Below, in pieces: positions 6,214 to 23,678 of a stretch of DNA of 32,000 bases. Within the stretch, counting starts at the first letter, position 1, and each line of letters begins with the position of its first letter. The DNA comes from Candidatus Saccharimonadota bacterium. GTDB taxonomy: Archaea > Nanohalarchaeota > Nanosalinia > Nanosalinales > Nanosalinaceae. The notes below the pieces were generated by a model that searched no databases, was not told the origin of the DNA, and worked only from the letters and a program-made list of their open reading frames with translations. Both the position numbers and the translations under genes were made by a program. The stretch covers positions 810,001-842,000 of the forward strand of contig CP012986.1 in NCBI GenBank assembly GCA_001761425.1, in the 5' to 3' direction.

Positions 6214-6725
6214 ACCATTCTACCTGGCTCTATCTTCCTGTATTCCTCCGGCATTGTCAGTTCCATGTAGGCCTCTGCTCTTTCCTTTGAGTTGGTTCCT
6301 TGTACGATTGCGAGTCTGTCTCCCTGACGTATCTCTTTTTGTCTGTCAAATTCTTCTCCGTTGAGAAGTACTGTTGTGTTTCCGCAGTAACTGTTTTCCG
6401 GCATCTCTATACAGGTCTGGTTCTCCCTTTCTATAGAGATGTTTACGGTATCAAGGAAGTCTCCCCAGCTGATGCCTTCTGCATGTTTATGAACGATCCT
6501 GCTCCTGTTATTTTCCAGATGGACGTCCCTGTCCTGTAACTGGAAGCGGTCTGCTCTAAGATTCAGAGGCGTTTTGTTCACCTCCATGTAAAACAGTGCG
6601 TGTTCGTGCGTTTCTCCCTCCTGAAGGCCTTTCTCTACTATGTCTGTGTTAAGTGTTATGCCTGCTGTCAGGCCTAGGATTATCGATGTGATTATGACTG
6701 TTACGGTGTATTTCCGCCTGTTCAT
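6210..6725 (-). CDS. Hypothetical membrane-anchored His-rich protein
   Basis: N-terminal TM segment 'YTVTVIITSIILGLTAGITL', with 'HEHALFYMEV' and 'RIVHKHAEG' motifs. Its stop overlaps the thiI start by 4 nt (6210-6213), implying co-transcription and translational coupling. Confidence 0.7.
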   Translation of the reverse strand: MNRRKYTVTVIITSIILGLTAGITLNTDIVEKGLQEGETHEHALFYMEVNKTPLNLRADRFQLQDRDVHLENNRSRIVHKHAEGISWGDFLDTVNISIERENQTCIEMPENSYCGNTTVLLNGEEFDRQKEIRQGDRLAIVQGTNSKERAEAYMELTMPEEYRKIEPGRMV

Positions 6726-6781
6726 GAGTAAGTGTTAGAATAGAAAAGATAAAAATCTGGAAAACGTAGTTTTGAAGAGTT

Positions 6782-7162
6782 CTACTCTGTGATCTCTCCG
6801 AAAGCGAATTTTCTGCCGACTGAAGTGATCTCTACATCGTACTTCTGATCGACTTCTCCGCCTGGAACGAAGACAACGAATCCTTCGACTCTTGCGATGC
6901 CGTCTCCCTTGCTTCCAAGGTCTTCGATCTCAAGTTCTACAACATCTCCCTCTGATACAGGTTTGTCGTAGTCCTCATCATCGCCAGAATCCTCCTGATC
7001 CTGATTTTCCTCTGCTTCTTGGGTTTCTTCCGTAGATTCCCCTTCAACTTCCTGAGCTTCAGTCTCTTCCTCAAAAACTTCTTCCTCTTCAGGCTCGGAT
7101 TCCTCTACTTCCTCGGTTTCGTCAACTTCTTGAACCATATGATCTTCATAATCGTCTGACAT
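6782..7162 (-). CDS. TRAM-domain protein with an acidic N-terminal extension
   Basis: The C-terminus 'VSEGDVVELEIEDLGSKGDGIARVEGFVVFVPGGEVDQKYDVEITSVGRKFAFGE' matches the TRAM OB-fold pattern. The ORF track starts at a GTG (7174). The ATG at 7160-7162 (MSDDYEDH) is more likely. Confidence 0.8.
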   Translation of the reverse strand: MSDDYEDHMVQEVDETEEVEESEPEEEEVFEEETEAQEVEGESTEETQEAEENQDQEDSGDDEDYDKPVSEGDVVELEIEDLGSKGDGIARVEGFVVFVPGGEVDQKYDVEITSVGRKFAFGEITE

Positions 7163-7399
7163 GAAATAATACACCTTCTACAAGTATAACAAAAACTTAG
7201 ATGAGAACTTTAAAAAGAGAGAGGTTACCTCACCGCAACAATACCACAAAGGAAAATTACACACCTGCGTCCCTAGGCCTTCCCGTTCCGATTTTATCCA
7301 ATAACTGGAAATCTCACTCGCCTCTATCTTTTTCGCCAGGTTCTGTAACTTACTGATGTTATCAAAGAGATCCAGAAGTGTACAGCCTTCTATGTAGAA

Positions 7400-7945
7400 C
7401 TATGAGGCCTTTGATTGTGGTCTGTAGCTTAGAAGTGCCAGTGCTATAACGGTCAGGAATAATGTGAGGGACATCCACGGTATTGTAACGAATCCGAACT
7501 CCTGTACCTGTACGGAGCTGCATGAGACTGCTGTGGAACAGGAACCTGTCGATAACTGTGACATCTGTACTATATAATGATAGATTGAGACAGGTAGACC
7601 CAGCACTGCCAGAGAAATCACATAGTCAGCTACATCATCCCTATCCATGAAAAGTGAGACACCGAGAATAACTGGCAGAGGGAAAATCAGTATCCTCTGA
7701 TACCAGCAGAACTCACACGCAGGTATCTCAAGGACTTCAGACATGTAGAGACTTCCAAGCACCGATACAGAAGTAAGTAAAAATGCCAGCTCCTCGAACC
7801 CAGCTGTAAAGAAGTCAAAGGCCTCAGAAATCCTCTTTTCAGCCTCTTCAAAACCTGTTAACCTTTTAAACAGGTATAAAAGGCCTAGAGCCAGTAAAAA
7901 TGCGTTAAGGACCAGTATACCTGCGGCCAGGACTTTTACTATCAT
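7400..7945 (-). CDS. DsbB/BdbC-family disulfide bond formation membrane protein
   Basis: 181 aa with about 4 TM segments. 'CEFCWYQRILIFPLP' matches the BdbC CxxCWYQR signature. A second Cys pair lies in a later loop ('GSCSTAVSCSS'). Confidence 0.75.
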   Translation of the reverse strand: MIVKVLAAGILVLNAFLLALGLLYLFKRLTGFEEAEKRISEAFDFFTAGFEELAFLLTSVSVLGSLYMSEVLEIPACEFCWYQRILIFPLPVILGVSLFMDRDDVADYVISLAVLGLPVSIYHYIVQMSQLSTGSCSTAVSCSSVQVQEFGFVTIPWMSLTLFLTVIALALLSYRPQSKAS

Positions 7946-8066
7946 GGTTGAGTTTTTATTTTTTCCTGTTTTTATATACGCTCTTGAACTAATTTTTCAA
8001 TGTCTACCTGTTTTTCTTTAATTAGCTTTACAAATGGGGCAAGACAATCACTTAACAGGATAATTT

Positions 8067-8432
8067 ATGTCAAGTAAAGAAGAAAAGTTGAACGAGCCAC
8101 TGGACGATCTCGATAGTGTCCAGGGGATCAAAGGAGCAGCAGTGGTACGAAGAGACGGTCTGTTAATAGCTTCCAACCTTGGCCAGGACATTGATGATGA
8201 CCAGGTTGGTGCAATGACGGCTTCTACTGTCGGTTCTGGTGAGACAGCTAGTGAAGCATTGAACATGGGAGACGTGGACGAAGTAAGTATAGAAGCAGCT
8301 AACGGAAAACTTATCGCCACAGGTGCAGGAGACGAAGGAATACTCGCAATACTAACAGAAAGCGACGTCAACATGGGCCTAGTAAAAGTAGAAATGAAAG
8401 ATGCCACAGAAAAAATCAAAAAGGTGCTTTAA
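8067..8432 (+). CDS. Roadblock/LC7 (MglB-like) domain protein
   Basis: 'LDSVQGIKGAAVVRRDGLLIASNL...DEVSIEAANGKLIATGAGDEGILAILTE' is the typical Roadblock/LC7 pattern. The antisense ORF 8048-8419 is a shadow. Confidence 0.85.
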   Translation: MSSKEEKLNEPLDDLDSVQGIKGAAVVRRDGLLIASNLGQDIDDDQVGAMTASTVGSGETASEALNMGDVDEVSIEAANGKLIATGAGDEGILAILTESDVNMGLVKVEMKDATEKIKKVL

Positions 8433-8714
8433 ATGGACTACGAAGAAGTAGCCCGGGAGATAATCGGAAAACAGGAAGATACCATCGGCATGATCGCAAC
8501 AAGAAAAGCCGAACAGGTCGAAAACATCGAGGTAGACGGAGAAGAAATCGTTTTCAAGGAAGAAGCGACTATCGAAGATATCAAGGCCTTGATGGAACAG
8601 TTCAAGAAGATCCAGGGCCAGGGAGCTGTAGGAATCGCAAGAAAAGCAGTTTCAGGCCTTGAAGACGATATCGATATAAATCTACCGGAGGAACTTCAGC
8701 CGGACTCAGAGTAA
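8433..8714 (+). CDS. Hypothetical acidic protein, translationally coupled to the Roadblock gene
   Basis: Its ATG directly abuts the upstream TAA (8430-8432). 93 aa, acidic, no recognised motif. Confidence 0.7.
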   Translation: MDYEEVAREIIGKQEDTIGMIATRKAEQVENIEVDGEEIVFKEEATIEDIKALMEQFKKIQGQGAVGIARKAVSGLEDDIDINLPEELQPDSE

Positions 8715-8730
8715 AAAAGAGAAAAAAGAA

Positions 8731-8737
8731 TTTTTTT
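8731..8737 (+). terminator. Oligo-T tract downstream of the Roadblock operon
   Basis: A T7 run lies 17 nt after the stop at 8712-8714. Archaeal termination commonly uses oligo-T. Confidence 0.45.
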
Positions 8738-8872
8738 CAAGGCCTTCTTAACCGTTTTCGAACTTTCCTCTAACTCAGCTTATCCTCCATCTCCCCAATT
8801 CTTTGAAACAGAAAAATATCCGGGACTCAGGCCTGTTTCGGTGGAGAAAATAAAAACAGGCATATGTAATAT

Positions 8873-8884
8873 ATCTATATAAAG
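8873..8884 (+). promoter_or_regulatory. TATA-box-like element (atctatataaag)
   Basis: A strong TATA-like sequence is centred about 25 nt upstream of the ATG at 8901. This is the geometry expected for a leaderless archaeal mRNA. Confidence 0.4.
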
Positions 8885-8900
8885 CCTGAAGGCAAGCTGG

Positions 8901-9166
8901 ATGTTAACCCTGATGCGTTCCTTCATTAATCTCTAGCTGCTCTTCTAGGAGGTTTTCTGGAAAGTATAGCAGTTTCAGGCCTTTCAGTTCCCCTGTTCCT
9001 GGGCTTCGGTACTTTAACGGGTTCTCTGGCTGTTTTCCTGTATTACAGGCAGAAAGGAGATAGCTGGATGTGTTCGGGGATGCATCTTTTCGCCGCAGCT
9101 TTTGTTCCGGTTCTGGCTCTAAGCTTTGGAGTTTTGACCAAGATAGCAGAGATTTTCGTGAAATAA
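8901..9166 (+). pseudogene. Possible frameshifted small (about 85 aa) multi-TM membrane protein gene
   Basis: ATG 8901 reads MLTLMRSFINL and then hits a stop at 8934. A different frame is open from 8930 to the TAA at 9164-9166. It encodes a clearly hydrophobic sequence (SLAALLGGFLESIAVSGLSVPLFLGFGTLTGSLAVFLYYRQKGDSWMCSGMHLFAAAFVPVLALSFGVLTKIAEIFVK) but has no ATG/GTG/TTG before 9068. Confidence 0.25.
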
Positions 9167-9271
9167 TTTTTCTGCCCACAGAAAATCTGGAATACTTCAA
9201 GGTTATCTTATCGGTCCGGAAGGCCTGTCTCTAAGAGGGGAAAAAGTGTAGAAAGCAGGGCCTGGAATAAA

Positions 9272-9278
9272 GTTTTTT
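9272..9278 (+). terminator. Oligo-T tract ending the putative 8.9-9.28 kb plus-strand transcript
   Basis: A T7 run sits immediately before the convergent tRNA gene. Confidence 0.35.
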
Positions 9279-9295
9279 TGGAGAGTACGGATGGT

Positions 9296-9385
9296 TCGCC
9301 GGCGCTCGGATTTGAACCGAGGAGGGACGGGTATGTCCCAGCAGATCTCGAATCTGCCGCAATCAGCCAGACTCTGCCACGCCGG
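9296..9385 (-). tRNA. tRNA-Ser (anticodon CGA), type II with a long variable arm; CCA not encoded
   Basis: The reverse complement folds by hand. Acceptor GCCGGCG/CGCCGGC, D stem GCAG/UUGC, anticodon stem GCAGA/UCUGC with loop UUCGAGA (CGA). Variable arm GGGAC-AUACCC-GUCCC, T arm CUCGG-UUCAAAU-CCGAG, discriminator G. Confidence 0.9.
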
Positions 9386-9484
9386 CTAGGCCTTGTGTTT
9401 TTACAAGGAGTTGTGTAATCGTTAAAAGCGGTTTGTTTTCAGCGGTTAACTGTATAAGGTTTTCCGATGTGATAGGTTTTTACG

Positions 9485-10162
9485 ATGGAGTTCAACTCTG
9501 TAGTTTTTGATATGGACGGGGTGATTTTAAACTCGCTTGTCGATCGTGAGGGCTGGAAGTACGAGGCTGTGAACAAGGCCTTGAAGAGCGAGGGCGTTGA
9601 CCCTGAGAGCCTGGATAGGGAGAAGAAGGATTCTCTTCTGGGAGATCAGGGTTATGCTGACTGTGTCAGTACTTCTAAAGAGGTTGGAGTTAATCCGCGG
9701 AAGGTATGGACCGAGGTAGCAGAAAAGACAACTCTGGCACGTGAGAAACAGCTTGAGAACGGCCAGTTCGAGCTTTACGAAGGTGCGAGAGAGAGTATCA
9801 GGGCTCTGCATGACAGAGATATTAAGATGGGTATCATCAGCAATGCTCCTGAAATGGCTGTCGAGCTGACAATCGAACACTTCGACTTAAAGCGGTTTTT
9901 CAAGTTTTACGCAGGAGTGAGAAACTTCGAGGACCTGAGAGCGCGCAAGCCTCATCCTAACCATCTGGAGATGGCGAAGGCTGAACTAAAACGTGATCCG
10001 TTCGTATACATCGGTGACCACAGAAGCGATCTTGTCGCAGCTCAGCGTGCTAACATGAGTTCTATCTGGGTGAAGAGGAATAAGGCCTCGATGGACGTGG
10101 ACCCAGATTTCACTGTCAAAGATATTTCAAGAATCAGGGAGATCGTACTGGAAAACACGTGA
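9485..10162 (+). CDS. HAD-superfamily hydrolase (subfamily IA, phosphoglycolate-phosphatase-like)
   Basis: Motif I 'VVFDMDGVILNS', motif II 'GIISNAP', motif III 'RKPHP', motif IV 'YIGDHRSDLVAA'. Confidence 0.85.
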   Translation: MEFNSVVFDMDGVILNSLVDREGWKYEAVNKALKSEGVDPESLDREKKDSLLGDQGYADCVSTSKEVGVNPRKVWTEVAEKTTLAREKQLENGQFELYEGARESIRALHDRDIKMGIISNAPEMAVELTIEHFDLKRFFKFYAGVRNFEDLRARKPHPNHLEMAKAELKRDPFVYIGDHRSDLVAAQRANMSSIWVKRNKASMDVDPDFTVKDISRIREIVLENT

Positions 10163-10212
10163 TTGTTGTCATCGAATAGTGTAAAAAGTTTTACTGTATT
10201 ATTTACTGTTAT

Positions 10213-10869
10213 ATGTCTGCATCATCTGAAAGCCAGGGTTCTGCAAATCTACCGGAGCTCTTCCAAGGCCTGAGAAGGAGTCCAGAGGAAGATGAAAGCT
10301 CTGACGACGCAGATTCAGAGGAGGATTCCAAGACTGAGGAGCTGGAGATCTATGATTTTGCAGAGGAGACAGATTATTCGACTGGCGATCTGAGGCCTGC
10401 TTATGATGTTCTTGAGGGAAGTTACTGGATCGATGAGGAGAACGAAAACGTTGTCGTTGCCGACTCCTCCTGGAACCAGATTGAGGAGATCCTGGAACAG
10501 GAGGCCTCAGAAGAGACAGATGAGGACGGAGGTTGGTATGACCGTGTCAGCAGTTACCTTATGGATCACGACCAGAAGTACGTGGGGGGAGGCCTGATCG
10601 GTATGGGTTCAGGCCTTTTATCCGGAGCTTTGGGTTACGGCCTTGCTGCGGATGTTCTACTGACAGGAGGTGCCGGAGCCTTTGGCTGGGGCCTGGGAGG
10701 AATGATCGGTGAGTACTTTTTTGGCGAAGAAGAGAAAGAAGAGTCGGAGGACGATGCAGGTTACGACAGCGAGTTAGCAGAGTACTCGGACTGGGATGTA
10801 GAGGTCCTCAAAATGCGGGAGTGCGGAGAGGCACTCAGGAAACAGAGGCAGGAAAATCGGTGGGCCTGA
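10213..10869 (+). CDS. Hypothetical acidic protein with a Gly-rich hydrophobic segment
   Basis: 218 aa. 'GGGLIGMGSGLLSGALGYGLAADVLLTGGAGAFGWGLGGMIGEYFF' is flanked by E/D-rich regions. ATG start. Confidence 0.7.
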   Translation: MSASSESQGSANLPELFQGLRRSPEEDESSDDADSEEDSKTEELEIYDFAEETDYSTGDLRPAYDVLEGSYWIDEENENVVVADSSWNQIEEILEQEASEETDEDGGWYDRVSSYLMDHDQKYVGGGLIGMGSGLLSGALGYGLAADVLLTGGAGAFGWGLGGMIGEYFFGEEEKEESEDDAGYDSELAEYSDWDVEVLKMRECGEALRKQRQENRWA

Positions 10870-10908
10870 TGTTTGTTCTTAAAAACTTCACTTTTTCATT
10901 CAGTTTTT

Positions 10909-11898
10909 ATGACAGATGAAACCTGTAGTAAGTGCGACCAGGATGCGGTTATAAACAGAGAATACGAGGGCCGTAGCCTCTGCAGGAAACATTTCAGTAT
11001 AGACGTGAACAAGCAGGTGAAACAGACCGTTAGAGAGGGAGACCTCGTTAACTCCGGCGATACAATCGCTGTAGGCCTCTCAGGAGGGAAGGACTCGGCC
11101 GTCCTTCTCGAACAGTTGGTGGATATATTCGGCGAGAGGCCTGATATCGAGATCGTCGGCGTCTCAGTGCATGAAGGTATCGATGAGTACAGGGATGAGT
11201 CTATATCTGCTGCTGAAGAACTCTGCGATGATCTAGGTGTAGAATTACATGTCGGAAGGTACGAGGACTACTACGACCTGAAAATGGATGATGTGGCGGA
11301 TGCTGGAGCGCGCGGAAACTGTACTTACTGCGGGATCTTCCGCAGAGACCTTCTCAACAAGTTATGCCGTGAAGTGGATGCAGACAAGATGGCTATAGGC
11401 CATAACTTGGATGATGAAGCCCAAAGCATCATGATGAACCATATCAAAGGCGATATGAAACGGCTGTCACGTATAGGGCCTAAAGACGATCCAGCAGATC
11501 ACGAGATGTTCGTCGAGAGGATAAAGCCTCTGCGTGATGTGATGGAAAAGGAGATAGCATTGTACTCTCGTATCCATGACCTTGGGGTTATCGATAGATG
11601 TCCACACGTACAGGAATCGACTTTGAGGCCTATGGTAAAGAGCTTTCTGAATAAGCTGGAGTCCCAGATGCCTGGAATTAAGTATTCGATCGTTTCACAG
11701 GGAAGAGAGATTTCAGACATGGTCGAGGAGGAGATCGACTGGGAACAGGAGGATTCGATCCAGAGATGTGAAAGATGCGGGGAACCATGTTCTGGAGGCG
11801 TCTGCAGGAAATGCCAGCTCTTGAAAGATATCAAAAAGGCTGCTGATGAGTCAGAGGACCACGATTTCGAATACAAAGAGGAGAAAGAGACTATCTGA
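10909..11898 (+). CDS. ncsA: tRNA 2-thiolation PP-loop ATPase (NcsA/Ncs6/TtuA family)
   Basis: N-terminal zinc finger 'CSKCDQ...CRKH', PP-loop 'GLSGGKDSAVLL', C-terminal 'CERCGEPCSGGVCRKCQ'. The ORF track starts at TTG 10873. ATG 10909 (MTDETCSKC) is preferred. Confidence 0.8.
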   Translation: MTDETCSKCDQDAVINREYEGRSLCRKHFSIDVNKQVKQTVREGDLVNSGDTIAVGLSGGKDSAVLLEQLVDIFGERPDIEIVGVSVHEGIDEYRDESISAAEELCDDLGVELHVGRYEDYYDLKMDDVADAGARGNCTYCGIFRRDLLNKLCREVDADKMAIGHNLDDEAQSIMMNHIKGDMKRLSRIGPKDDPADHEMFVERIKPLRDVMEKEIALYSRIHDLGVIDRCPHVQESTLRPMVKSFLNKLESQMPGIKYSIVSQGREISDMVEEEIDWEQEDSIQRCERCGEPCSGGVCRKCQLLKDIKKAADESEDHDFEYKEEKETI

Positions 11899-15328: not shown

Positions 15329-16195
15329 ATGGAAGATGCTGCGGATAAGGCCTCAGATTTCTACATGGATCTGTTTACTTTTGAATGGCAGAAACTGGTT
15401 TTACCTTTCCTCATGGTTTTGATACTTTCTGCCAGTGCTTTCTCCACCATAGATCTTAAACAGGGAGACAGAAGCAGCAAGATCGTCGAGTTAAGCATCG
15501 AAACCACTTCAAACCTTTCCGAGGCCTCCATAAGGACCACATACTTCAACGATACAGTTAACCGATCTTTTGAAAATCTTTCACGTGAGATAGATGACAG
15601 AGCCGACAAAAGGATGAAAGAACTGACCTCAGGCAGTTACAGGTATAAGCTCTCTATCGCAGGTCTTCAAAACCTAGGATTCTTCCCTTACACTCCGGAA
15701 CATAAGATTCCTCTACGTATGTCGGAGAAAGATTACCTGACAGCTCTGGCAGAAATTAAATACAGGCGGGAACAGTCCAAGCTCCTGTGGGAAAGGCTTA
15801 ACTCCTCTGAAAACATTACTCTGGAAGAGTTCGAGTCTGAGTTTGACCGTATAGAAAATGTTGACTGGAAAAGCGAAGAGGTCAAGGCCTACCTGAGAAA
15901 TTACTCCCGGCCGGAGGAATCAGTTGGATTCGAAAGCAAAGAACTTACCCGGGATGCGAGACAGAAGGTTATCGACGAGGAATTCGACCAGCTTTCGTTC
16001 ACAGATTATATACCGGGATTAATTGCTACGTTCATGATCTATTTCGTGGTCAGTGCTGTAGCAGTTGAGTCAGTAAGAAAAGCTGTAAGACAGTTCAAGG
16101 CCTCCAGAGAAAGAAGAGAGGTTAAAGCCTCTGGAAAAGGCGAGGACTCGAAGAATGAAGAAAAAGCTGAAGAAAACAAAGAAGACAAGAGATAG
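15329..16195 (+). CDS. Hypothetical membrane protein (N- and C-terminal TM segments), paralog 1 of a tandem pair
   Basis: 288 aa. TM segments 'LVLPFLMVLILSASAFSTI' and 'IPGLIATFMIYFVVSAVAV', with a K/E-rich tail. It is similar to the next gene. Confidence 0.75.
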   Translation: MEDAADKASDFYMDLFTFEWQKLVLPFLMVLILSASAFSTIDLKQGDRSSKIVELSIETTSNLSEASIRTTYFNDTVNRSFENLSREIDDRADKRMKELTSGSYRYKLSIAGLQNLGFFPYTPEHKIPLRMSEKDYLTALAEIKYRREQSKLLWERLNSSENITLEEFESEFDRIENVDWKSEEVKAYLRNYSRPEESVGFESKELTRDARQKVIDEEFDQLSFTDYIPGLIATFMIYFVVSAVAVESVRKAVRQFKASRERREVKASGKGEDSKNEEKAEENKEDKR

Positions 16196-16209: not shown

Positions 16210-17004
16210 ATGGATCTGAAAACGGGTTTTCTGGCCTCGAAGGATTTTCTGAAAAGGGCTTTGAGGCCTGATGACTTCGAAAAGTTTGTTCTACCTGTTC
16301 TGATGTCGCTTCTTCTAATCCTCGGTGTTTACTCAACCTTCGATCTTCAGAGTAGCTACGGACAGAGATCGCTGAACTTCACCCTTGAGAGTCTGACCGA
16401 GAGACAGATCCTCCAGGTCCAGGACAGAAAATTTCCAGAGACAATGGACAGGCCTCTTGAAACTGCTCTGAGCGAGAAAGACACAGAGTTAAGAAACGAG
16501 ATCAACAGTATGAGGTCAAAACCGCTGTTTATGGCGAAAGGCCTTCTTTCCCGCATGATCTTTGATAGCGGAGTTTTTCCACTGATCCCTGACAGGATGC
16601 TGGCTCCCTGGAACCCTGAAAAAAGCTATGTCCGGGCTTTAGGCCTTCTCAGGTTCAGGACGGACAGGATCTCGGAGCTAGCCGAGAAAGACGATAATTA
16701 CAGTTATTCCGAATTCCAGGCAGATGTCGGAGAAATCCGTTCAGTAAGCTTTGAAGACGAAGAAGTTAGGGCCTTCCTGGAAAACTCCAGTTCTGGGACC
16801 GGTGTTACCCTTAGCTTTATGGATGACGTGTCTCCGGAACAGGTTATGTCCGACGGCATTGATTCTGTCAGTTTCCGGGATTTCCTGCCTTCTTTCCTCG
16901 CTACCTTCCTGATCTACTACATTCTTGGAGCTGTATCCGTCCAGGGTAACAAAGAGCTTGTCAACAAAATCTTTGGAGACGACCGGGAAAGGCCTGTCCA
17001 GTGA
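16210..17004 (+). CDS. Hypothetical membrane protein, paralog 2 of the tandem pair
   Basis: 264 aa. Shared blocks with 15329-16195: 'FEKFVLPVLMSLLLILGVYSTFDLQ' vs 'FEWQKLVLPFLMVLILSASAFSTIDLK', 'EEVRAFLENSS' vs 'EEVKAYLRNYS', and 'SFRDFLPSFLATFLIYYILGAVSVQ' vs 'SFTDYIPGLIATFMIYFVVSAVAVE'. Confidence 0.75.
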   Translation: MDLKTGFLASKDFLKRALRPDDFEKFVLPVLMSLLLILGVYSTFDLQSSYGQRSLNFTLESLTERQILQVQDRKFPETMDRPLETALSEKDTELRNEINSMRSKPLFMAKGLLSRMIFDSGVFPLIPDRMLAPWNPEKSYVRALGLLRFRTDRISELAEKDDNYSYSEFQADVGEIRSVSFEDEEVRAFLENSSSGTGVTLSFMDDVSPEQVMSDGIDSVSFRDFLPSFLATFLIYYILGAVSVQGNKELVNKIFGDDRERPVQ

Positions 17005-17062
17005 ATTTTTTGAATTGAATGGGAAAAGGGAGAATATGTGGGAGAGGGGAGGGATGGAGTGT

Positions 17063-17070
17063 ATAAAAAC
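17063..17070 (-). terminator. Oligo-T tract (TTTTTAT on the minus strand) just after the 5S rRNA 3' end
   Basis: Plus-strand 'tataaaaac' lies 3 nt beyond the helix I 3' strand. Confidence 0.5.
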
Positions 17071-17072
17071 AG

Positions 17073-17186
17073 TCCGGCAACGTCCTGTGAATCCCGCCGC
17101 AAGGCAGTACGACACAGATCGATGGAGGACTTAACTTCCGTGTTCGGAATGGGTACGGGTGTTGCCCCTCCTCTTTGGTCGCCGGT
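17073..17186 (-). rRNA. rrf: 5S ribosomal RNA (boundaries +/- a few nt)
   Basis: The reverse complement contains 'CCCGUACCCAUUCCGAACACGGAAGUUAAGUCCUCC', the universal 5S loop B/helix III-loop C core. Terminal helix I is CCGGCGAC/GUUGCCGG. The ORFs called here on both strands are artefacts. Confidence 0.9.
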
Positions 17187-17207
17187 AACCACAAAACATG
17201 GTGTAAG

Positions 17208-17281: not shown

Positions 17282-17530
17282 ATGAGTTCACTGGGTGGAG
17301 GCGGAGGCCTCAGGGAAAAAATCGAAGGTTCTACCATCGTTGACCTTCTTACAGTAACGGTTCTTGCCATGGATTTCTGGCTTCTGAGAAACGCAGGCCT
17401 CGGCGGATTCAACTCGCCCTCCTCATTGTTAACGATTTCGATGAGCGGACAGGTAATCGCAGCACAGCTTACAGGCCTTCTGCTCGTGATCTACATTGTT
17501 GAAGCAGTTATCGACAGTTCTTCACATTAA
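17282..17530 (+). CDS. Hypothetical small membrane protein (2 TM)
   Basis: 82 aa. TM segments 'IVDLLTVTVLAMDFWLL' and 'VIAAQLTGLLLVIYIVEAVI'. A TATA-like box lies at about -28. Confidence 0.5.
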   Translation: MSSLGGGGGLREKIEGSTIVDLLTVTVLAMDFWLLRNAGLGGFNSPSSLLTISMSGQVIAAQLTGLLLVIYIVEAVIDSSSH

Positions 17531-17989
17531 CTGTTTGCCGAGACATATTTTATCTCGTATATCTCCAGGAAAGCTCTATTCTCCAGAAATTTATCCAGAT
17601 ATAACTGTCCTGGAATATTGTTCCAGGCCTTTAAACTGGTTAAACCAAATATTACAGCTTTCAAACTCTTTTTTACTGTATTAATCCATTATAAAGAGTT
17701 TACACAAATATTAGTTATCAGCAAAGACGCTGAAATAGCTTCTGGAGGAAGCAGAAGCCTTGAAATTGAATGAAGTTGGTAAAACCCGGATTGAAGCCTC
17801 TTCGAGGCCTTGAACCGTTTCGGTCCAGGGGCAAGGACCTCTATGGAGGATCTGGTTTCGGGTAGGCCTGATATAGCTTCAGCTCTGTGATACTGTGAGC
17901 TGGGTTACAGGCGGTAAAGCTAGGGATAATTGTATCCAGGCGTTCTTAAATGCGTCTGGAGTTTCAAAACCGCTTATAGAAAATTATTT

Positions 17990-17997
17990 GAGGTGAT
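17990..17997 (+). promoter_or_regulatory. Shine-Dalgarno-like site GAGGTGAT
   Basis: It is complementary to the conserved 16S 3' end (..GAUCACCUCC) and lies 5 nt before ATG 18003. Confidence 0.6.
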
Positions 17998-18002
17998 TTA
18001 GA

Positions 18003-19886
18003 ATGAATAGACGTATTTTGGCATCATTTATGGTAATAGGCCTTGTGGCTGCCGGTGCTGGATTGAGCACGACCGCTCTGTTTAATGATACAGAGACAAG
18101 TGCAGATAACCAGTTTACGGCAGGTGAGCTTGATCTCAGGGTTGACTGGGAGGAGAGCTACAATGGCGAACATGTTGAGACTCAGGAGTTGACCAATGAT
18201 CCTGGCACGATCTTCGACTTTGAGGATCTGAAGCCAGGTGATTACGGTGAGGCGACTGTGAGCCTTCATCTTGAGGATAATCCTGGCTGGATCTGGATGA
18301 AGTTGAACCAGACCTCCAACTGGGATAATGCATGTACAGAACCTGAGCATAATGCTGAGGGTACATGTGGAAGTGAAGGAGAACTTGATGAGGAACTTGA
18401 GTTCACGATCTGGAGCGACGATGGAGACAATGAGCTTCAGGAGGATGAGAAAGTGATCTTTGAAGGAACAGCAGAGGAACTTGAAGAAAAGAGCACTTCA
18501 GAGGGAATCCTTCTAGATGGAAACTCTTCCACTGAAGAGACAGAGCCTTTCCCAGGCGCAGAGACAGGTTATATCGGAGTTAAGTGGAATTTACCTCTTG
18601 ATACAGGAAACAGGATCCAGGGAGACTCTGTATCCTACGATGTGACCTTCTACACAGAGCAGAGAAGGCACAACGACAATCCAGAGAATCCGTGGAGTGA
18701 CGAACCAGAAGAGAAGCCTGGTGACGGAAATGAGTCTGACGGAGAGAAAAAGAATGAGTCAGAAAGTTTCTACCAGGTTGATCTTGTAGGCGGAGATCCT
18801 ATAGAGAACCTCTCTGAGTCCACATATCACTCTGAGGGAAGGATGCAGAGATACATCCACGGGAAGCCGGGAGACGCTATCTCCAAGGAGAGCGAATCCG
18901 ATCAGGTCAAGACAGGGACAGGAAGCGTAGACTGCGTGGACAGCGAGCCATTCACAGTCAACAAGAAACAAGACACAGCGACAGTAGAGTTTGAAGTCCT
19001 GAACAAGACACCAGAATGTGGAACAGGGACAGAGCTATCGCTAGTAAGCTACGAGAAACCATACCCTGGCTGGATCGCGGAGAGAGCAGGAGAACAGGAA
19101 ATCTTCGATAGCACAAACCACCGATTTGATCCAGGAAACCATTCGCTAACCGTCGCAATCCCAGATATCAACAACGAAACATCTGAGGATTCCGAGGAAG
19201 AACCTAAGGACTCTGACGGAGATGAATCTGAAGGTTCCGATGCCTATGTAGCGACCCAGGGATCAGAGACTGTTGAGATCAGCCCTCTCAAAGGCAACAT
19301 GACAGTCCAGGAACTCTACGATTACAGGCTTCCATCACGTTTTGACAACGAGGTCGATAACGAGGCCTTGAACGGAGCTACTTATCCTGAGGATGGGCCT
19401 TACTATGGTTCAGCCGGTACCGGTAATCTTCAACAGGCTGATACTTCCATCATGTTCCTCTACGATGGGCCTAATGGCCTGAGTTTCGTAGTGGTACATG
19501 AGGGAGGTGCTTCTGACGACGGAGGTTCAGCAACCTTTGAGATCTCTAACCTTTCCGAGTCAGGTCAGTGGGTAGTGAAAGACGATCTCTACTTCAGAGA
19601 TGACGGACAGAAAGCGAACAGTAACTACGACATCTGGGACGTCAACTCCAGCACCCATACCATTGACTGGACATGGGGCGGAGGAGGTGAAGACGGAGGT
19701 GCTTTCCAGCCAGTTGGAGAGGACTTCAGCTTCACAATTGACCCAGCCTTCAACGAAGAATCTGAACTCTACGAACAGTTCTACAACGGAGATGTTGAAG
19801 ACTGGCAGGTCCTTTCAGGAGACATGAACAACCCTGAAAGAACTTCACTCAACCTTACACAGGAAGTAACGGTTGAAGCTCAGTAA
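18003..19886 (+). CDS. Secreted TasA/camelysin (peptidase M73)-like protein with a SipW-type signal peptide and a roughly 400-aa C-terminal extension
   Basis: 'IGLVAAGAGLSTTALFNDTETSADNQFTAGELDL', 'LKPGDYGEATVSL' and 'IQGDSVSYDVTFYTEQRRHN' parallel, from memory, B. subtilis TasA 'AAFNDIKSKDATFASGTLDL', 'LKPGD' and 'YQGNSIKLQFSFEATQ'. It has many N-x-S/T sequons. Confidence 0.85.
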   Translation: MNRRILASFMVIGLVAAGAGLSTTALFNDTETSADNQFTAGELDLRVDWEESYNGEHVETQELTNDPGTIFDFEDLKPGDYGEATVSLHLEDNPGWIWMKLNQTSNWDNACTEPEHNAEGTCGSEGELDEELEFTIWSDDGDNELQEDEKVIFEGTAEELEEKSTSEGILLDGNSSTEETEPFPGAETGYIGVKWNLPLDTGNRIQGDSVSYDVTFYTEQRRHNDNPENPWSDEPEEKPGDGNESDGEKKNESESFYQVDLVGGDPIENLSESTYHSEGRMQRYIHGKPGDAISKESESDQVKTGTGSVDCVDSEPFTVNKKQDTATVEFEVLNKTPECGTGTELSLVSYEKPYPGWIAERAGEQEIFDSTNHRFDPGNHSLTVAIPDINNETSEDSEEEPKDSDGDESEGSDAYVATQGSETVEISPLKGNMTVQELYDYRLPSRFDNEVDNEALNGATYPEDGPYYGSAGTGNLQQADTSIMFLYDGPNGLSFVVVHEGGASDDGGSATFEISNLSESGQWVVKDDLYFRDDGQKANSNYDIWDVNSSTHTIDWTWGGGGEDGGAFQPVGEDFSFTIDPAFNEESELYEQFYNGDVEDWQVLSGDMNNPERTSLNLTQEVTVEAQ

Positions 19887-19908
19887 AAATTCATTTCAAG
19901 AAGGTAAA

Positions 19909-19950
19909 GGAGGAGAAAAAACTCCTCCCCACTCCTTCTCACATTTTTTT
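19909..19950 (+). terminator. Hairpin (GGAGGAG-aaaaaa-CTCCTCC) followed by a T7 run; candidate partial terminator/attenuator
   Basis: A perfect 7-bp stem at 19909-19928 and TTTTTTT at 19944-19950, between the TasA-like stop (19886) and the signal peptidase ATG (19969). Confidence 0.4.
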
Positions 19951-19968
19951 GAACAGAGGACGGGAAAG

Positions 19969-20463
19969 ATGAAAAAGAAAAACACGGCAATCTGGATCGC
20001 AGTACTAATCCTTCTGACACCTTTCATAGCCTACGGATTAGGGCCTTACACAGACCTCTACGATTCCTTCACTGTTTCATCAGGCTCCATGGAGCCCGAC
20101 ATCCCTGAAAACGCTGTAATATTCACACAGCCGGTAAGGCCTGAAGAGATCAGTAGAAACGATGTAATCACTTTCAGAGATACTTCTGATCTTTATACTA
20201 CGCACAGAGTAGTAGATGTAGTCTCCAGTGAGGAAGGCCTCAGGTTCCAGACTAAAGGCGATGCTAACGAAGATGCTGATCCAGGCCTTGTTGAAGAGGA
20301 AGAAGTTGTTGGAAAAGTTTTCCTGTCTATACCATTCATAGGGGGTATCATCTATTTTGCCAGAACTCCTACAGGTATTTTCCTGATGATCGGGCTGCCT
20401 GCTTTAGGCCTTTTACTGTGGGAATTATACGTTTTCATACGGGAAGTCAGTGATTTTTCATAG
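19969..20463 (+). CDS. sipW: Signal peptidase I, SipW/Sec11 (S26B) type
   Basis: N-terminal TM, catalytic Ser box 'SSGSMEPDI', His box 'YTTHRVVDV', 'TKGDANEDADPG', and a C-terminal TM. The track start at TTG 19873 overlaps the upstream gene; ATG 19969 (MKKKNTAIW) is preferred. Confidence 0.85.
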   Translation: MKKKNTAIWIAVLILLTPFIAYGLGPYTDLYDSFTVSSGSMEPDIPENAVIFTQPVRPEEISRNDVITFRDTSDLYTTHRVVDVVSSEEGLRFQTKGDANEDADPGLVEEEEVVGKVFLSIPFIGGIIYFARTPTGIFLMIGLPALGLLLWELYVFIREVSDFS

Positions 20464-20525
20464 GTACTGTAGTATATCTGTTTTTCTGCAACAATGGGTA
20501 TTTGTTCACAGGAATAACTGTATCC

Positions 20526-22007
20526 ATGGATATCGATTACGATGATTCAGCCAAGTTTCCAGTGAGGGAGCTTGGCCTGGCGTATCTGGACAGGGCTACT
20601 GATATCCACCCTCACACAAATTATACTGACGGAACTCAGGGCGTCCAGGATTCTATAGAGGAGGCCAGAAGCCACGGTTTATGGGAGAAAGGTGCCATCG
20701 AACACGCTAACCGTATTGATGAAGATATAGTGCATGTTACAGGTTTTCTGACAGATTTCAGCGACAATAAACAGGTCTACAGCTCCAGAGATGTCTTCCC
20801 GCTAAAGTACGAAAACTTAGAGGAGATTGCCGGAGATGACATGGATACCACGTTGCTGAACGATGCGGACAGGGAAAAACTAGGTGAAGATGTAGAGACT
20901 CTTAATAATATCCAGGAACGTGGTGAGGCCTCTTACGAGGATCTGGTGAATTACAAGATGGTTATACCTCACGGCGTGGAACTTGACTATAACCCTGCTA
21001 TAGAGCCAGTCGTAAACGGAGACGAGAGGGAAGCGGTCGAGAGCTACGAACAGGAGATCCTGGATTTCCTCAGGGATGCAGAAAGCCTTAACTCCGGGTT
21101 TAACTATGCTTTATTAAGTTCTCACTATGTCAATACTCCTTTCAGGCCTAGATACGTGAAAAAAGAAGGGCTTTTCGAGGACATGAGTTTGGATGAGAGA
21201 AAAGAGGTCCTTGAGGCCTACAGGGATAAAGAGATCTACAAGATCGATTCTCTAGCAGAGAAGATGGGTAAAATGGAGGTTCCTGCGGTCTCTGGCGAGC
21301 TGATGAGGCCTGAAGAGATGGATGAACTTGAAGAGTTTATCTACGGCCAGGAGGCTGCTGTAGAAAGTGCTGTCAGCGAACAGGTGAGTAATGAACAGAT
21401 CAGGGAACTGACTGATGAGTCACTGGATATTGAGAGGCCTGGTGTACTGGCTGTGGGAGCACATCCTACTCTGATCGAGAGAAACGAGGAGTTGATGGAT
21501 GTGTTCCGTGAGGATGAAGGCCTTGATACCAGGGAGGATATCCGGGATGAACTTGAGTCTTTTATGTATGATACAGCTCTGGAAGGCCTTGATGGTACTG
21601 ATCTTTCATCTGTTCTGGATGAGACTGTCTCGACCGGGGATGTGGATGAGGTGCTTTCGGAAGAGGATTTCCAGGCGATTTATCCTGCTGAAAGCCTACT
21701 TGATTTTTACAGTCCTATGGTGGATGCTGCGGACAGACAGGATAATTTCATCTTTGAGGTAAACGGTAAGGGAGTGGAGAGGCAGGTACCTTCTGTTTTC
21801 TGGTACATGCTTGATGAGAAAGTTTTCGGTTCCGACGCTCACAGGCCTATGGAACAGCCAGAAAGAAGCCAGATTTACTCTGAATCAGATCTTCCCGGCC
21901 ACACGGTTTTACTGAGCGAAAAATGGCTGGAACAGCTAGAGGACAGAGAAGAAGCATCGGGCGAAGACCTGGATAAAGAAATTTCAAGAGATCGAGCCAC
22001 GGTCTAG
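20526..22007 (+). CDS. PHP-domain metal-dependent phosphoesterase (HisJ-like) with large acidic insertions
   Basis: The PHP motifs occur in order: 'DIHPHTNYTDG', 'AIEHAN', 'HGVELDY', 'LLSSHYV', 'GAHPT', 'GSDAHRP'. ATG 20526 is preferred over TTG 20502. Confidence 0.7.
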   Translation: MDIDYDDSAKFPVRELGLAYLDRATDIHPHTNYTDGTQGVQDSIEEARSHGLWEKGAIEHANRIDEDIVHVTGFLTDFSDNKQVYSSRDVFPLKYENLEEIAGDDMDTTLLNDADREKLGEDVETLNNIQERGEASYEDLVNYKMVIPHGVELDYNPAIEPVVNGDEREAVESYEQEILDFLRDAESLNSGFNYALLSSHYVNTPFRPRYVKKEGLFEDMSLDERKEVLEAYRDKEIYKIDSLAEKMGKMEVPAVSGELMRPEEMDELEEFIYGQEAAVESAVSEQVSNEQIRELTDESLDIERPGVLAVGAHPTLIERNEELMDVFREDEGLDTREDIRDELESFMYDTALEGLDGTDLSSVLDETVSTGDVDEVLSEEDFQAIYPAESLLDFYSPMVDAADRQDNFIFEVNGKGVERQVPSVFWYMLDEKVFGSDAHRPMEQPERSQIYSESDLPGHTVLLSEKWLEQLEDREEASGEDLDKEISRDRATV

Positions 22008-22115: not shown

Positions 22116-22409
22116 ATGAACCTGAAGAAGTATTTTCTTAACGAGAAGCCTGCTGAGACTCTTGTTATGATCAACAAATCTGACCAAGAAGTATTCAACT
22201 CACTGATTTCTCGCAAAATCGATACTACCTACTCCCATACTGTGGAAATAGTACAGACCCTGGAGAAAGAAGGACTTATAGAGACAGAGAAAGCCGGAAG
22301 GAAAAAAGTCTCCACTCTTACCAGCAAAGGCAGGGAATGCGCAGAAGCACTTGAGGATTTCCTAGAGGCAATAGATTCATCAGGAAAGGAAAAAGAGGTA
22401 AAGGCCTAA
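22116..22409 (+). CDS. Small winged-helix DNA-binding protein (MarR/ArsR-like), paralog A
   Basis: 97 aa. 'ISRKIDTTYSHTVEIVQTLEKEGLIETEKAGRKKVSTLTSKG' shows an HTH plus wing pattern. It is roughly 50% identical by eye to 23337-23678. Confidence 0.75.
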   Translation: MNLKKYFLNEKPAETLVMINKSDQEVFNSLISRKIDTTYSHTVEIVQTLEKEGLIETEKAGRKKVSTLTSKGRECAEALEDFLEAIDSSGKEKEVKA

Positions 22410-23336: not shown

Positions 23337-23678
23337 TCAGAGGGTGTTGTCGCTTAGCTTTGAGCCCTGACTGCTTAGTGAGAGGCCTTCGCTTGCTCCT
23401 TCCTCCTCTTCCTCGAACATTTCCAGCATTTCGATGAACAGGTCTGCGTATCTTTCTCCTTTCTCTGTTAAAGTGAGAATTTTTTTCCTTCCCTGTTTTT
23501 CGCTCTTTATCAGGCCTTCGTCTTCGAGCTGGGAGATTATCTTGACGGCGTGGGCGTAGGTGGTGTCGATTTTGCGGGAGATTATGCTTCCATAGATCTC
23601 TTTGCGTGATTTCCTGATTGTGACCAGGGTCATCACTGGTTTTTCGTTTAGAAAGATTTCTTTCATTTTTTGGTTCAC
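23337..23678 (-). CDS. Small winged-helix DNA-binding protein, paralog B
   Basis: 'FLNEKPVMTLVTIRKSRKEIYGSIISRKIDTTYAHAVKIISQLEDEGLIKSEKQGRKKILTLTEKG' is parallel to paralog A. It starts at GTG 23678 or ATG 23666, and lies 3 nt downstream of the ComF-like gene stop. Confidence 0.75.
   Translation of the reverse strand: MNQKMKEIFLNEKPVMTLVTIRKSRKEIYGSIISRKIDTTYAHAVKIISQLEDEGLIKSEKQGRKKILTLTEKGERYADLFIEMLEMFEEEEEGASEGLSLSSQGSKLSDNTL

What the first reader, a model, noticed from the sequence alone, without database searches (positions are those of the whole stretch)
18003..20463. TasA/camelysin-like fibre protein plus dedicated SipW-type signal peptidase in a halophilic archaeon, with a large novel C-terminal extension
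The first roughly 215 aa carry the SipW-cognate signal and N-terminal strand ('ALFNDTETSADNQFTAGELDL'), 'LKPGD', and the C-terminal 'QGDSVSYDVTFYTEQ' block. These parallel B. subtilis TasA. The next gene is an S26B signal peptidase (SGSMEP / THRV / GDAN boxes).

In Bacillus the sipW-tasA pair builds biofilm fibres by donor-strand exchange. TasA-like subunits have also been reported to form archaeal bundling pili. Here the protein is 627 aa. After an acidic linker come two further domains (about aa 255-400 and 420-627, for example 'SIMFLYDGPNGLSFVVVHEGG...THTIDWTWGGGGEDGG') that I cannot place.

If the organism is an ectosymbiont, a polymerising subunit that displays extra domains is a plausible host-attachment or matrix filament.
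Basis: partly seen in the sequence, partly recalled or inferred. Interest (0 to 1): 0.65.

Follow-up and report, generated by a model that had tools for sequence, protein, structure and literature searches.

The report
TasA-like fibre subunit with passenger domains
A tiny salt-loving symbiotic archaeon encodes a relative of the bacterial biofilm-fibre protein TasA next to its own signal peptidase; the protein carries two extra outward-facing domains, one shared with surface proteins of the host group, so it is a plausible but untested attachment or matrix fibre.

Summary
ORF 18003-19886 (627 aa) starts with a SipW-cognate signal (TIGR04088) and a full TasA/camelysin jelly-roll (PF12389; only significant fold match is the TasA fibre, 8AUR). 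A profile alignment puts its predicted cleavage site and N-terminal strand on TasA's cleavage site and donor strand. The next gene (true start about 19969, 164 aa) is an archaeal-type signal peptidase I. This peptidase lineage sits just downstream of TasA-like genes in Nanohaloarchaeota, Aenigmatarchaeota, Halobacteria and two unidentified organisms, so "dedicated" is reasonable.

The extension is two confident beta-rich domains on acidic linkers. D2 (aa 256-395) was found only in TasA-like proteins of nanohaloarchaea and one uncultured archaeon. D3 (aa 416-627) is not unique. It is an unnamed domain (605 clusters) found mostly behind Tat signals in haloarchaeal secreted proteins. Neither has a Pfam or PDB match. 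Close relatives keep D1 but swap the passenger (D2, D3, PKD, LamG, vWA).

The source is a nanohaloarchaeon. NCBI already names orthologues "TasA family" or "SipW-dependent-type signal peptide" proteins, so the pairing is known. What is new is the modular passenger display in a DPANN symbiont. Polymerisation and host attachment are inferred, not tested.

The parts
18003..19886 (+). Gene for the 627-aa TasA-family protein with C-terminal passenger domains (D1-linker-D2-linker-D3)
   Evidence: ORF. PF12389 and TIGR04088 both above their cut-offs. 199 homologues, the best in Nanohaloarchaeota.
18003..18077 (+). Signal peptide, aa 1-25 (MNRRILASFMVIGLVAAGAGLSTTA); predicted cleavage after TTA25
   Evidence: TIGR04088 match on aa 12-43. 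hhalign places TTA25|L26 on TasA's TWA27|A28. The RR is not conserved among nanohaloarchaeal homologues, so Sec export is more likely than Tat.
18078..18137 (+). Predicted donor strand and N-terminal arm of the mature protein, aa 26-45 (LFNDTETSADNQFTAGELDL)
   Evidence: F27, D29, E31, N36, G41 and L45 are invariant in 52 homologues. The segment is not placed in the monomer model, pLDDT below 50. It aligns to TasA donor strand 28-38, with F27=F29 and F38=F39.
18138..18698 (+). D1 core, TasA-like jelly-roll, aa 46-232
   Evidence: PF12389 profile positions 19-192 of 196. AF2 core pLDDT mostly 80-96. The only significant PDB fold match is the 8AUR TasA fibre, E 4.2e-6.
18699..18767 (+). Acidic linker 1, aa 233-255
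   Evidence: 10 D+E in 23 residues. pLDDT falls from 87 for aa 221-230 to 59 and 47 over aa 231-250 at the end of the D1 model.
18768..19187 (+). D2, beta-sandwich passenger domain, aa 256-395, restricted to this lineage
   Evidence: AF2 strands at aa 256-385, pLDDT above 90 for most of it. No Pfam, NCBIfam or PDB match. Found in only 23 of the 444 proteins collected, almost all nanohaloarchaeal TasA-like proteins, and once more in an uncultured-archaeon locus, L013.
19188..19247 (+). Acidic linker 2, aa 396-415
   Evidence: pLDDT below 50 for fragment residues 146-159, which are aa 396-409. 10 D+E in 20 residues.
19248..19883 (+). D3, beta-rich passenger domain, aa 416-627; member of a large unnamed family of haloarchaeal secreted domains
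   Evidence: AF2 pLDDT 91-98 apart from one block of 78. 605 clusters at 50% identity, mostly at residues about 40-250 behind Tat signals. No Pfam or PDB match. One viral structural match, A0A248SJG3, E 2.7e-9.
19969..20463 (+). Signal peptidase I, archaeal/ER (S26B) type, 164 aa, with SGSMEP (aa 38), HRV (aa 79), GDAN (aa 97) and N- and C-terminal hydrophobic helices
   Evidence: TIGR02228 96 bits, cut-off 51.85. Motifs and hydropathy. 164 aa called on L001-L003. Its nearest relatives outside nanohaloarchaea lie directly downstream of PF12389 genes.
17990..17997 (+). Shine-Dalgarno GAGGTGAT, 5 nt upstream of the ATG
   Evidence: Invariant in the window, L004, L005 and L012.
17282..17530 (+). 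82-aa two-helix membrane protein always found upstream of the TasA-like gene in nanohaloarchaea; whether it belongs to the system is uncertain
   Evidence: Present upstream in L001-L006, 54-100% identity. No family match. An unrelated 82-aa membrane protein follows the second TasA-like gene in L015.

Best explanation
This is a minimal two-gene TasA-type surface-fibre system in a nanohaloarchaeon.

1. The 627-aa precursor is exported, most likely by Sec, through a SipW-cognate signal peptide.
2. The membrane-bound S26B signal peptidase encoded 82 bp downstream cleaves it after TTA25. This frees an N-terminus beginning LFNDTETS.
3. By analogy with TasA and AbpX, that conserved N-terminal strand inserts into the jelly-roll of the next subunit (donor-strand complementation). 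The result is a chaperone-free extracellular filament.
4. Two glycosylated beta-sandwich domains, D2 and D3, project from each subunit on flexible acidic linkers.
5. The passenger domains are the variable, ligand-facing part and are swapped among close relatives. D3 is shared with secreted and surface proteins of haloarchaea, the host group. The fibre therefore probably mediates adhesion or matrix formation at the symbiont-host interface.

Shown here: family membership, fold, the signal and cleavage-site alignment, the peptidase identity and its conserved linkage, the domain architecture and its modularity.
Inferred: cleavage by this particular peptidase, polymerisation, and the adhesion role.
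For: Family and fold:
- PF12389 matches end to end on D1, and TIGR04088 passes its cut-off.
- The AF2 D1 core is confident, and its only significant PDB match is the TasA fibre subunit 8AUR (E 4.2e-6, probability 1.00, 229 columns). Weak hits are enriched in donor-strand pilins such as PapG, Saci_0406, CanA, FimA and PapA.

Donor strand:
- hhalign of the D1 family against verified B. subtilis TasA gives probability 94.9% and E 4.6e-8. It aligns the cleavage sites, and puts F27 and F38 on the TasA donor-strand anchors F29 and F39.
- The N-terminal 20 mature residues hold six invariant positions, yet are unplaced in the monomer model. This is what is expected of a strand that binds another subunit.

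Peptidase linkage:
- A peptidase lies 0.1-3 kb downstream of a D1-type gene in every locus with enough flank: the window, L001-L005, L007 (Halobellus), L008 (Aenigmatarchaeota), L010, L011, L012 and L015.

Precedent:
- P. abyssi abpX plus a TIGR02228 peptidase is a minimal locus whose product self-assembles.

Extracellular location and modularity:
- N-glycosylation sequons are enriched, 13 against 6.1 +/- 2.2 expected. There is no membrane anchor.
- Relatives with D1 70-93% identical carry different passengers.
- Attached nanohaloarchaeal cells are reported to be engulfed by extracellular matrix.
Against: - No multimer model or experiment was possible, so polymerisation is untested.
- In TasA the C-terminal residues 239-261 form an inter-subunit contact. 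A 395-residue C-terminal extension might interfere with this.
- The third TasA donor-strand anchor, I32, corresponds to T30 here.
- Foldseek TM-scores to 8AUR are only 0.46 and 0.49.
- Neither the single sequence nor the family HMM finds TasA among PDB sequences.
- No TapA-like nucleator or second subunit is present in the window.
- The very wide range of fused or inserted passengers (vWA, a multicopper oxidase, a beta-helix) could mean the module is a general carrier rather than a fibre subunit.
- Whether this is the genome's only signal peptidase is unknown.
- PDB structural matches for D2 and D3 to adhesins are all non-significant.
Confidence: 0.5

Rival explanations
1. It is a non-polymerising secreted or surface protein. 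The TasA-like module serves only as an export, processing or carrier module recognised by the dedicated peptidase. The functional part is the passenger (D2/D3), acting as a monomeric binding protein or adhesin.
For: - The module is fused to, or interrupted by, many unrelated passengers: vWA, PKD, LamG, a beta-helix, a multicopper oxidase and a D3-like domain.
- In haloarchaea the passengers sit inside loops of the jelly-roll.
- D3 mostly occurs without any TasA module.
- The large C-terminal extension lies where TasA makes an inter-subunit contact.
Against: - The mature N-terminal strand is the most conserved part of the protein and aligns to the TasA donor strand.
- It is unplaced in the monomer model.
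- Every structurally characterised member of the TasA superfamily reported in the papers read here forms donor-strand filaments.
- The protein has no membrane or cell-wall anchor, so a monomer would simply diffuse away.
Confidence: 0.3
2. It is a tip, adaptor or nucleator subunit (like FimH or TapA: a pilin-type module plus an adhesin domain) of a fibre whose major, short subunit is encoded elsewhere in the genome.
For: - The architecture, a donor-strand module followed by adhesin-like beta-sandwich domains, resembles tip adhesins.
- Other lineages have several D1-type paralogues per locus: four in Halobellus L007, three in L013, two in L015.
- Short 205-226-aa PF12389 genes exist next to related peptidases.
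Against: - Only one D1-type gene is found in the 32-kb window and in the syntenic loci L001-L005 and L012.
- All nanohaloarchaeal homologues recovered are long, at least about 360 aa, and carry passengers. None looks like a bare major subunit.
Confidence: 0.12
3. It is a camelysin-type secreted metalloprotease, which is the literal meaning of the Pfam name Peptidase_M73.
For: The Pfam family name, and the match to PF12389.
Against: - There is no HExxH or reversed zinc motif anywhere in the protein.
- The closest fold is the non-enzymatic TasA fibre subunit.
Confidence: 0.03
4. It is a haloarchaeal Tat-fimbria (Tafi) type system.
For: The N-terminus contains RR. There is a neighbouring signal peptidase, and a winged-helix regulator about 2 kb downstream.
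Against: - Tafi uses a two-domain, four-TM peptidase (TafD) together with a DUF5305 protein (TafG) and DUF1102-type pilins.
- Here the peptidase is a 164-aa enzyme with one N-terminal and one C-terminal hydrophobic region. No DUF5305 or DUF1102 match was found in the neighbours.
- The RR is not conserved in nanohaloarchaeal orthologues.
Confidence: 0.02

Closest known systems
Bacillus subtilis TasA with SipW (tapA-sipW-tasA operon; PF12389, TIGR04088; fibre structure 8AUR)
   Same: - Same Pfam family and jelly-roll fold.
- Same type of signal peptide, with aligned cleavage site and donor-strand motif (FND...F.xG.LDL).
- Same LKPGD and Q-G-[DN]-S blocks.
- An adjacent ER/archaeal-type signal peptidase with SGSMEP, H and D boxes.
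   Different: - There is no TapA-like gene.
- The peptidase is not a SipW equivalog (96 bits against 190).
- The subunit carries about 395 extra C-terminal residues in two domains, where TasA has only a short C-terminal tail that contacts the neighbouring subunit.
- The protein is highly acidic and rich in sequons.
- The host is archaeal (DPANN).
Pyrodictium abyssi AbpX with its adjacent TIGR02228 signal peptidase (TasA superfamily; 2026 preprint)
   Same: A minimal archaeal locus of one TasA-superfamily subunit followed by a same-strand TIGR02228 signal peptidase proposed to be dedicated. Assembly needs no chaperone or nucleator.
   Different: - AbpX is a short subunit (217 aa) with no passenger domains, and forms a separate sequence cluster from TasA proper.
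- Its assembly is triggered by calcium, which was not examined here.
- The preprint describes most dedicated AbpX peptidases as having ten TM helices, whereas this one has about two hydrophobic regions.
Archaeal bundling pili, AbpA of Pyrobaculum calidifontis
   Same: A TasA-superfamily donor-strand filament in an archaeon. The locus also encodes a second protein, AbpB, whose distal beta domains were proposed to act as adhesins.
   Different: - AbpA is related to PF12389 only at the profile-profile level, whereas D1 here matches PF12389 directly.
- ABP loci have no dedicated peptidase.
- AbpA did not appear among the top 50 fold matches.
Haloarchaeal SipW-cognate proteins with vWA or other domains (NCBI: 'SipW-dependent-type signal peptide-containing protein', 'vWA domain-containing protein')
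   Same: Same N-terminal signal and strand, same jelly-roll, and linkage to a signal peptidase.
   Different: - They carry canonical Tat motifs.
- The passenger domains are inserted inside the jelly-roll rather than appended.
- There are several paralogues per locus.

Membership tests
TasA/camelysin family (Pfam PF12389 Peptidase_M73) | Profile match above the curated gathering score over most of the domain | tested here: met
   31.5 bits against a cut-off of 22.5, aa 16-221 on profile positions 19-192 of 196. 26.8 bits on the full protein.
TasA/camelysin family (Pfam PF12389 Peptidase_M73) | TasA-like jelly-roll fold | tested here: met
   Foldseek of the AF2 D1 model: 8AUR_A at E 4.2e-6, probability 1.00, 229 columns. 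It is the only hit at E <= 1e-3. TM 0.46/0.49 is borderline, partly because 50 of the 250 query residues, mostly the N-terminal 41, are modelled below pLDDT 50.
TasA/camelysin family (Pfam PF12389 Peptidase_M73) | SipW-cognate signal peptide with conserved post-cleavage strand (TIGR04088) | tested here: met
   28.9 bits against a cut-off of 19. hhalign against verified TasA gives probability 94.9%, with cleavage sites and F27/F38 aligned to F29/F39.
TasA/camelysin family (Pfam PF12389 Peptidase_M73) | Polymerisation by N-terminal donor-strand complementation | not testable with these tools
Indirect support only: an invariant N-terminal strand that is unplaced in the monomer model.
TasA/camelysin family (Pfam PF12389 Peptidase_M73) | TapA-like nucleator or anchor in the operon (a feature of the Bacillus operon, not of the superfamily) | tested here: not met
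   There is no second D1-type gene anywhere in the 32-kb window (tblastn), and none of the six neighbouring proteins scanned carries a TIGR04088 signal. The AbpX precedent shows that this feature is dispensable.
SipW (NCBIfam NF046067 equivalog) | Score above the equivalog cut-off | tested here: not met
   96.3 bits against a cut-off of 190.
Archaeal/ER-type signal peptidase I (TIGR02228, MEROPS S26B) | Profile match above cut-off, with Ser, His and Asp boxes | tested here: met
   96 bits against 51.85. SGSMEP at aa 38, HRV at aa 79, GDAN at aa 97. Hydrophobic segments at aa 5-28 and 112-157.
Dedicated (fibre-linked) signal peptidase | Conserved adjacency to TasA-like genes across distant lineages | tested here: met
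   Adjacent in the window, L001-L005, L007, L008, L010, L011, L012 and L015.
Dedicated (fibre-linked) signal peptidase | A separate housekeeping signal peptidase exists elsewhere in the same genome | not tested
   Only 32 kb of the genome is available. The peptidase homologue search could not resolve copy number per genome.
Tafi (Tat-dependent fimbriae) | Two-domain four-TM TafD peptidase, DUF5305 TafG, DUF1102-type pilins, and a conserved Tat motif | tested here: not met
   The peptidase is 164 aa. There are no DUF5305 or DUF1102 hits in the neighbours. The RR is not conserved among nanohaloarchaeal orthologues.
Camelysin-type metalloprotease | Zinc-binding catalytic motif | tested here: not met
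   No HExxH or HxxEH in the 627 aa.

The most novel reading that the evidence does not exclude
Nanohaloarchaeal symbionts build a self-assembling, chaperone-free TasA-type donor-strand fibre in which every subunit displays exchangeable passenger domains (D2, D3, PKD, LamG). D3 was acquired from the haloarchaeal host lineage and binds a host envelope component. Swapping the passenger cassette on a conserved polymerising scaffold would then set host specificity. That would be a decorated biofilm-type fibre repurposed as the attachment organ of a DPANN ectosymbiont.
Probability: 0.2. Interest if true: 0.75.

Novelty: new variant of a known kind. Interest (0 to 1): 0.5.

Why it matters
How DPANN ectosymbionts recognise and hold on to their hosts is largely unknown. 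In nanohaloarchaea, attention has gone to the giant SPEARE proteins and to LamG/ConA-type lectin-like proteins.

A TasA-type, self-polymerising scaffold carrying swappable, glycosylated passenger domains would be a simple and testable attachment or matrix device. One of those domains is shared with the host lineage. Orthologues exist in cultured co-cultures (Ca. Nanohalobium constans, Ca. Nanohalovita haloferacivicina), so experiments are feasible.

According to a 2026 preprint, no archaeal member of the TasA-proper cluster has been characterised experimentally. The work also defines D3 as a large family of haloarchaeal extracellular domains (605 clusters) that lacks any Pfam or NCBIfam model and any solved structure.

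Tried and rejected
- Tat export: the RR at residues 3-4 suggested Tat. Nanohaloarchaeal orthologues have KR, KK, TR, KH, RS or RQ at that position, while the haloarchaeal homologues have canonical [ST]RR[KR]xL. I therefore judged this incidental.
- Tafi system: rejected on peptidase architecture and missing partner genes.
- Metalloprotease: no zinc motif.
- Sequence searches of the PDB gave nothing useful for the full protein, the D1 family profile or the D2D3 family profile.
- Foldseek of D2D3 against the PDB gave no hit at E <= 1e-3. Only a weak tail of CNA/Als/Sdr adhesins, cohesins and CBMs appeared, which I do not treat as evidence.
- Identifying the viral structural match A0A248SJG3: tblastn of D3 and of a three-copy D3 protein against phage records found nothing, and the accession appears in no held paper.
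- Copy number per genome from the reference-genome scan: only 3 loci were returned.
- Second peptidase per genome: the peptidase homologue search could not answer this.
- Proteomic detection of the Ca. Nanohalobium orthologue LC1Nh_0310: no supplements are held, and P0012 is not on record by exact sequence.
- Rfam found nothing credible in the long upstream leader.
Full report
**What is there.** The window encodes a 627-aa protein on the + strand at 18003-19886. After an 82-bp gap comes a signal peptidase gene. The mechanical ORF for the peptidase begins at a TTG at 19873, but the family profile starts matching at residue 34. Gene callers on three near-identical public contigs aa. The true start is therefore most likely the ATG at 19969.

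The surrounding genes are housekeeping: IleRS, ThiI, TtuA, RsmB and a 5S rRNA. The best homologues and the collinear loci are nanohaloarchaeal. They include Ca. Nanohalobium constans LC1Nh_0310 and the complete genome of Ca. Nanohalovita haloferacivicina. The source is therefore a nanohaloarchaeon, a DPANN group that lives as ectosymbionts on haloarchaea.

**The N-terminal module (D1) is a genuine TasA-family domain.**
- Alone, aa 1-240 matches Pfam PF12389 almost end to end: 31.5 bits against a cut-off of 22.5, profile positions 19-192 of 196.
- The N-terminus matches TIGR04088, the SipW-cognate signal model: 28.9 bits against 19.
- An AlphaFold model built on 52 homologues is confident for aa 42-235. 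Its only significant match among solved structures is the TasA fibre subunit 8AUR (E 4.2e-6, probability 1.00, 229 aligned columns). The TM-scores of 0.46 and 0.49 are borderline.
- I wrote B. subtilis TasA from memory and confirmed that it is identical to 8AUR over residues 28-261. A profile comparison of the D1 family against it gives 94.9% probability and E 4.6e-8.
- That comparison aligns TTA25|L26 with TasA's SipW site TWA27|A28. It also aligns F27 and F38 with F29 and F39, two of the three hydrophobic anchors of the TasA donor strand. The third anchor, I32, aligns with T30.
- Six positions in the first 20 mature residues are invariant across 52 homologues. That segment is the one part of D1 the monomer model cannot place, with pLDDT below 50.
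- There is no zinc-protease motif.

**The peptidase.**
- It passes the archaeal signal peptidase I model TIGR02228 (96 bits against 51.85) but not the Bacillus SipW equivalog (96 against 190).
- It has the SGSMEP, HRV and GDAN boxes and hydrophobic segments at both ends.
- Because all archaeal signal peptidases are of this type, the type itself says little. The linkage says more. A peptidase of this kind lies 0.1-3 kb downstream of a D1-type gene in every locus with enough flank.
- Those loci are the window, five nanohaloarchaeal loci, a further nanohaloarchaeal MAG, a nanohaloarchaeal contig with two paralogues, an Aenigmatarchaeota MAG, and Halobellus.
- The two closest relatives of this peptidase outside nanohaloarchaea each sit directly after a short (205-226 aa) PF12389 gene. 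The peptidase lineage therefore travels with TasA-like genes.
- I could not determine whether this genome also has a separate housekeeping peptidase.

**Export route.** Haloarchaeal homologues carry a canonical Tat motif after a long n-region. Nanohaloarchaeal ones have a short n-region in which the second basic residue varies (RR, KR, KK, TR, KH, RS, RQ). The RR here is therefore probably incidental and export is probably by Sec.

**The C-terminal extension.** A second AlphaFold model (101 sequences, mean pLDDT 90.5) shows two beta-rich domains at aa 256-385 and aa 415-626. They are separated by a disordered acidic linker.
- Neither domain has a Pfam, NCBIfam or PDB-sequence match, and no PDB fold match reaches E 1e-3.
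- D2 is rare. It was found in 23 of the 444 proteins collected, almost all nanohaloarchaeal TasA-like proteins, and once more in an uncultured-archaeon locus, L013.
- D3 is not unique. An exhaustive HMMER search returned 605 clusters, 385 of them at E <= 1e-10. In most, the domain lies at residues about 40-250, directly behind a Tat signal.
- These D3 carriers are unnamed "hypothetical proteins" of Halorussus, Halostella, Halomicrobium, Halobacterium, Salinigranum and others. Some have tandem copies, or fusions to PKD, fn3, CARDB and PGF-CTERM anchors.
- In a midpoint-rooted NJ tree, all TasA-fused nanohaloarchaeal D3 copies form one clade nested within the haloarchaeal diversity. This suggests a single transfer between the host and symbiont lineages but does not prove it.
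- One viral predicted structure, A0A248SJG3, matches over about the length of D3 at E 2.7e-9. I could not identify it.

**Modularity.**
- Close relatives with D1 70-93% identical carry D2 only, D3 only, D2+D3, PKD repeats, or an inserted laminin-G domain.
- In haloarchaea the passengers, including vWA and a D3-like domain, sit inside the jelly-roll rather than after it.
- The TasA-like module is thus a conserved scaffold with an exchangeable outward-facing part.
- The mature protein is strongly acidic, is enriched in N-glycosylation sequons (13 against 6.1 +/- 2.2) and has no membrane anchor.

**How it most likely works.** The precursor is exported and cleaved after TTA25 by the adjacent peptidase. 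It then polymerises head to tail by inserting its N-terminal strand into the next subunit, as in TasA and in the minimal abpX-peptidase system of P. abyssi. D2 and D3 are displayed along the fibre.
- The steps that are shown are family, fold, signal alignment, linkage and architecture.
- The steps that are inferred are cleavage by this enzyme, polymerisation and adhesion.
- The main rival is a non-polymerising carrier-plus-passenger protein. A second is a tip subunit of a fibre whose major subunit is encoded elsewhere.
- The TasA C-terminal tail contributes an inter-subunit contact. The long extension is therefore a real concern for the fibre model.

**Comparison with what is known.** NCBI already names orthologues "TasA family protein" and "SipW-dependent-type signal peptide-containing protein". 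Wang et al. 2022 noted that PF12389 homologues are widespread in archaea, including Halobacteriales. The 2026 AbpX preprint notes that TasA-superfamily genes often sit beside signal peptidase genes, and states that no archaeal TasA-cluster homologue has been characterised.

The pairing itself is therefore known. I found no paper linking TasA to nanohaloarchaea. None of the papers I read described the passenger-display architecture or the D3 family. The Tafi system of haloarchaea is clearly different.

**Verdict.** The system is a new variant of a known kind and is moderately interesting. Its main value is as a testable candidate for symbiont-host attachment, and as the definition of an unannotated haloarchaeal surface domain.

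Noticed in passing
window 17072-17186 (-): A 5S rRNA gene (Rfam RF00001, 69.9 bits against a gathering score of 38). It explains the spurious minus-strand ORFs listed at 16741-17192.
   Followed up: yes
window 17725-17985 (+), upstream of the TasA-like gene: A G+C-rich island of about 260 nt (51-54% against 30% just upstream) lies between an AT-rich stretch and the Shine-Dalgarno. It is conserved against L004 about as well as the coding sequence, but cannot be aligned in L005 or L012. Predicted folding is only modestly better than shuffles (z -2.1 on +, -2.4 on -) and there is no Rfam match. It may be a long structured 5' leader or a small RNA.
   Followed up: partly
window 15329-16195 (+) and 16210-17004 (+): A tandem pair of paralogous proteins (288 and 264 aa, about 27% identical), each with one N-terminal and one C-terminal hydrophobic helix and no family match. 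Present in L001, L002 and L004, but absent upstream of the TasA-like gene in Ca. Nanohalovita (L005).
   Followed up: partly
window 20502-22007 (+): A very acidic protein of about 493-501 aa with no hydrophobic segment and only a weak PHP-domain match (20.7 bits, below cut-off). It follows the peptidase in all nanohaloarchaeal loci examined (L001-L005, L012). This may simply reflect genome-wide collinearity.
   Followed up: partly
D3 of the window protein (19248-19883); BFVD entry A0A248SJG3_1: The D2D3 model has one strong match to a predicted viral protein structure (E 2.7e-9, probability 1.00, 220 columns, 19% identity) that the tools cannot name. From memory only, accessions in this range may belong to a phage from a hypersaline site. 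No sequence-level match was found in the phage records.
   Followed up: partly
L007 (Halobellus sp. H-GB7) 4596-11381; P0045, P0057: Haloarchaeal loci carry three or four D1-type genes ahead of the peptidase. Passenger domains (vWA, and a D3-like domain at 26% identity) are inserted inside the jelly-roll, between the N-terminal strand and the rest. D3 has therefore been combined with the TasA module in two different ways.
   Followed up: partly
L015 (nanohaloarchaeal contig Ga0466774_0000123) 10001-14997: A relative with two TasA-like paralogues (one with C-terminal PKD, one with an inserted laminin-G) on either side of a membrane-anchored PKD protein and the peptidase. In that peptidase the GDAN box reads GIAN.
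   Followed up: partly
window 22116-22409 (+) and 23337-23678 (-): Two paralogous small winged-helix proteins (DUF6293_C/HTH_27-type) lie near the cluster. On the near-identical contigs a VapB-like antitoxin ORF was called between them. A link to regulation of the TasA-like gene was not examined.
   Followed up: no
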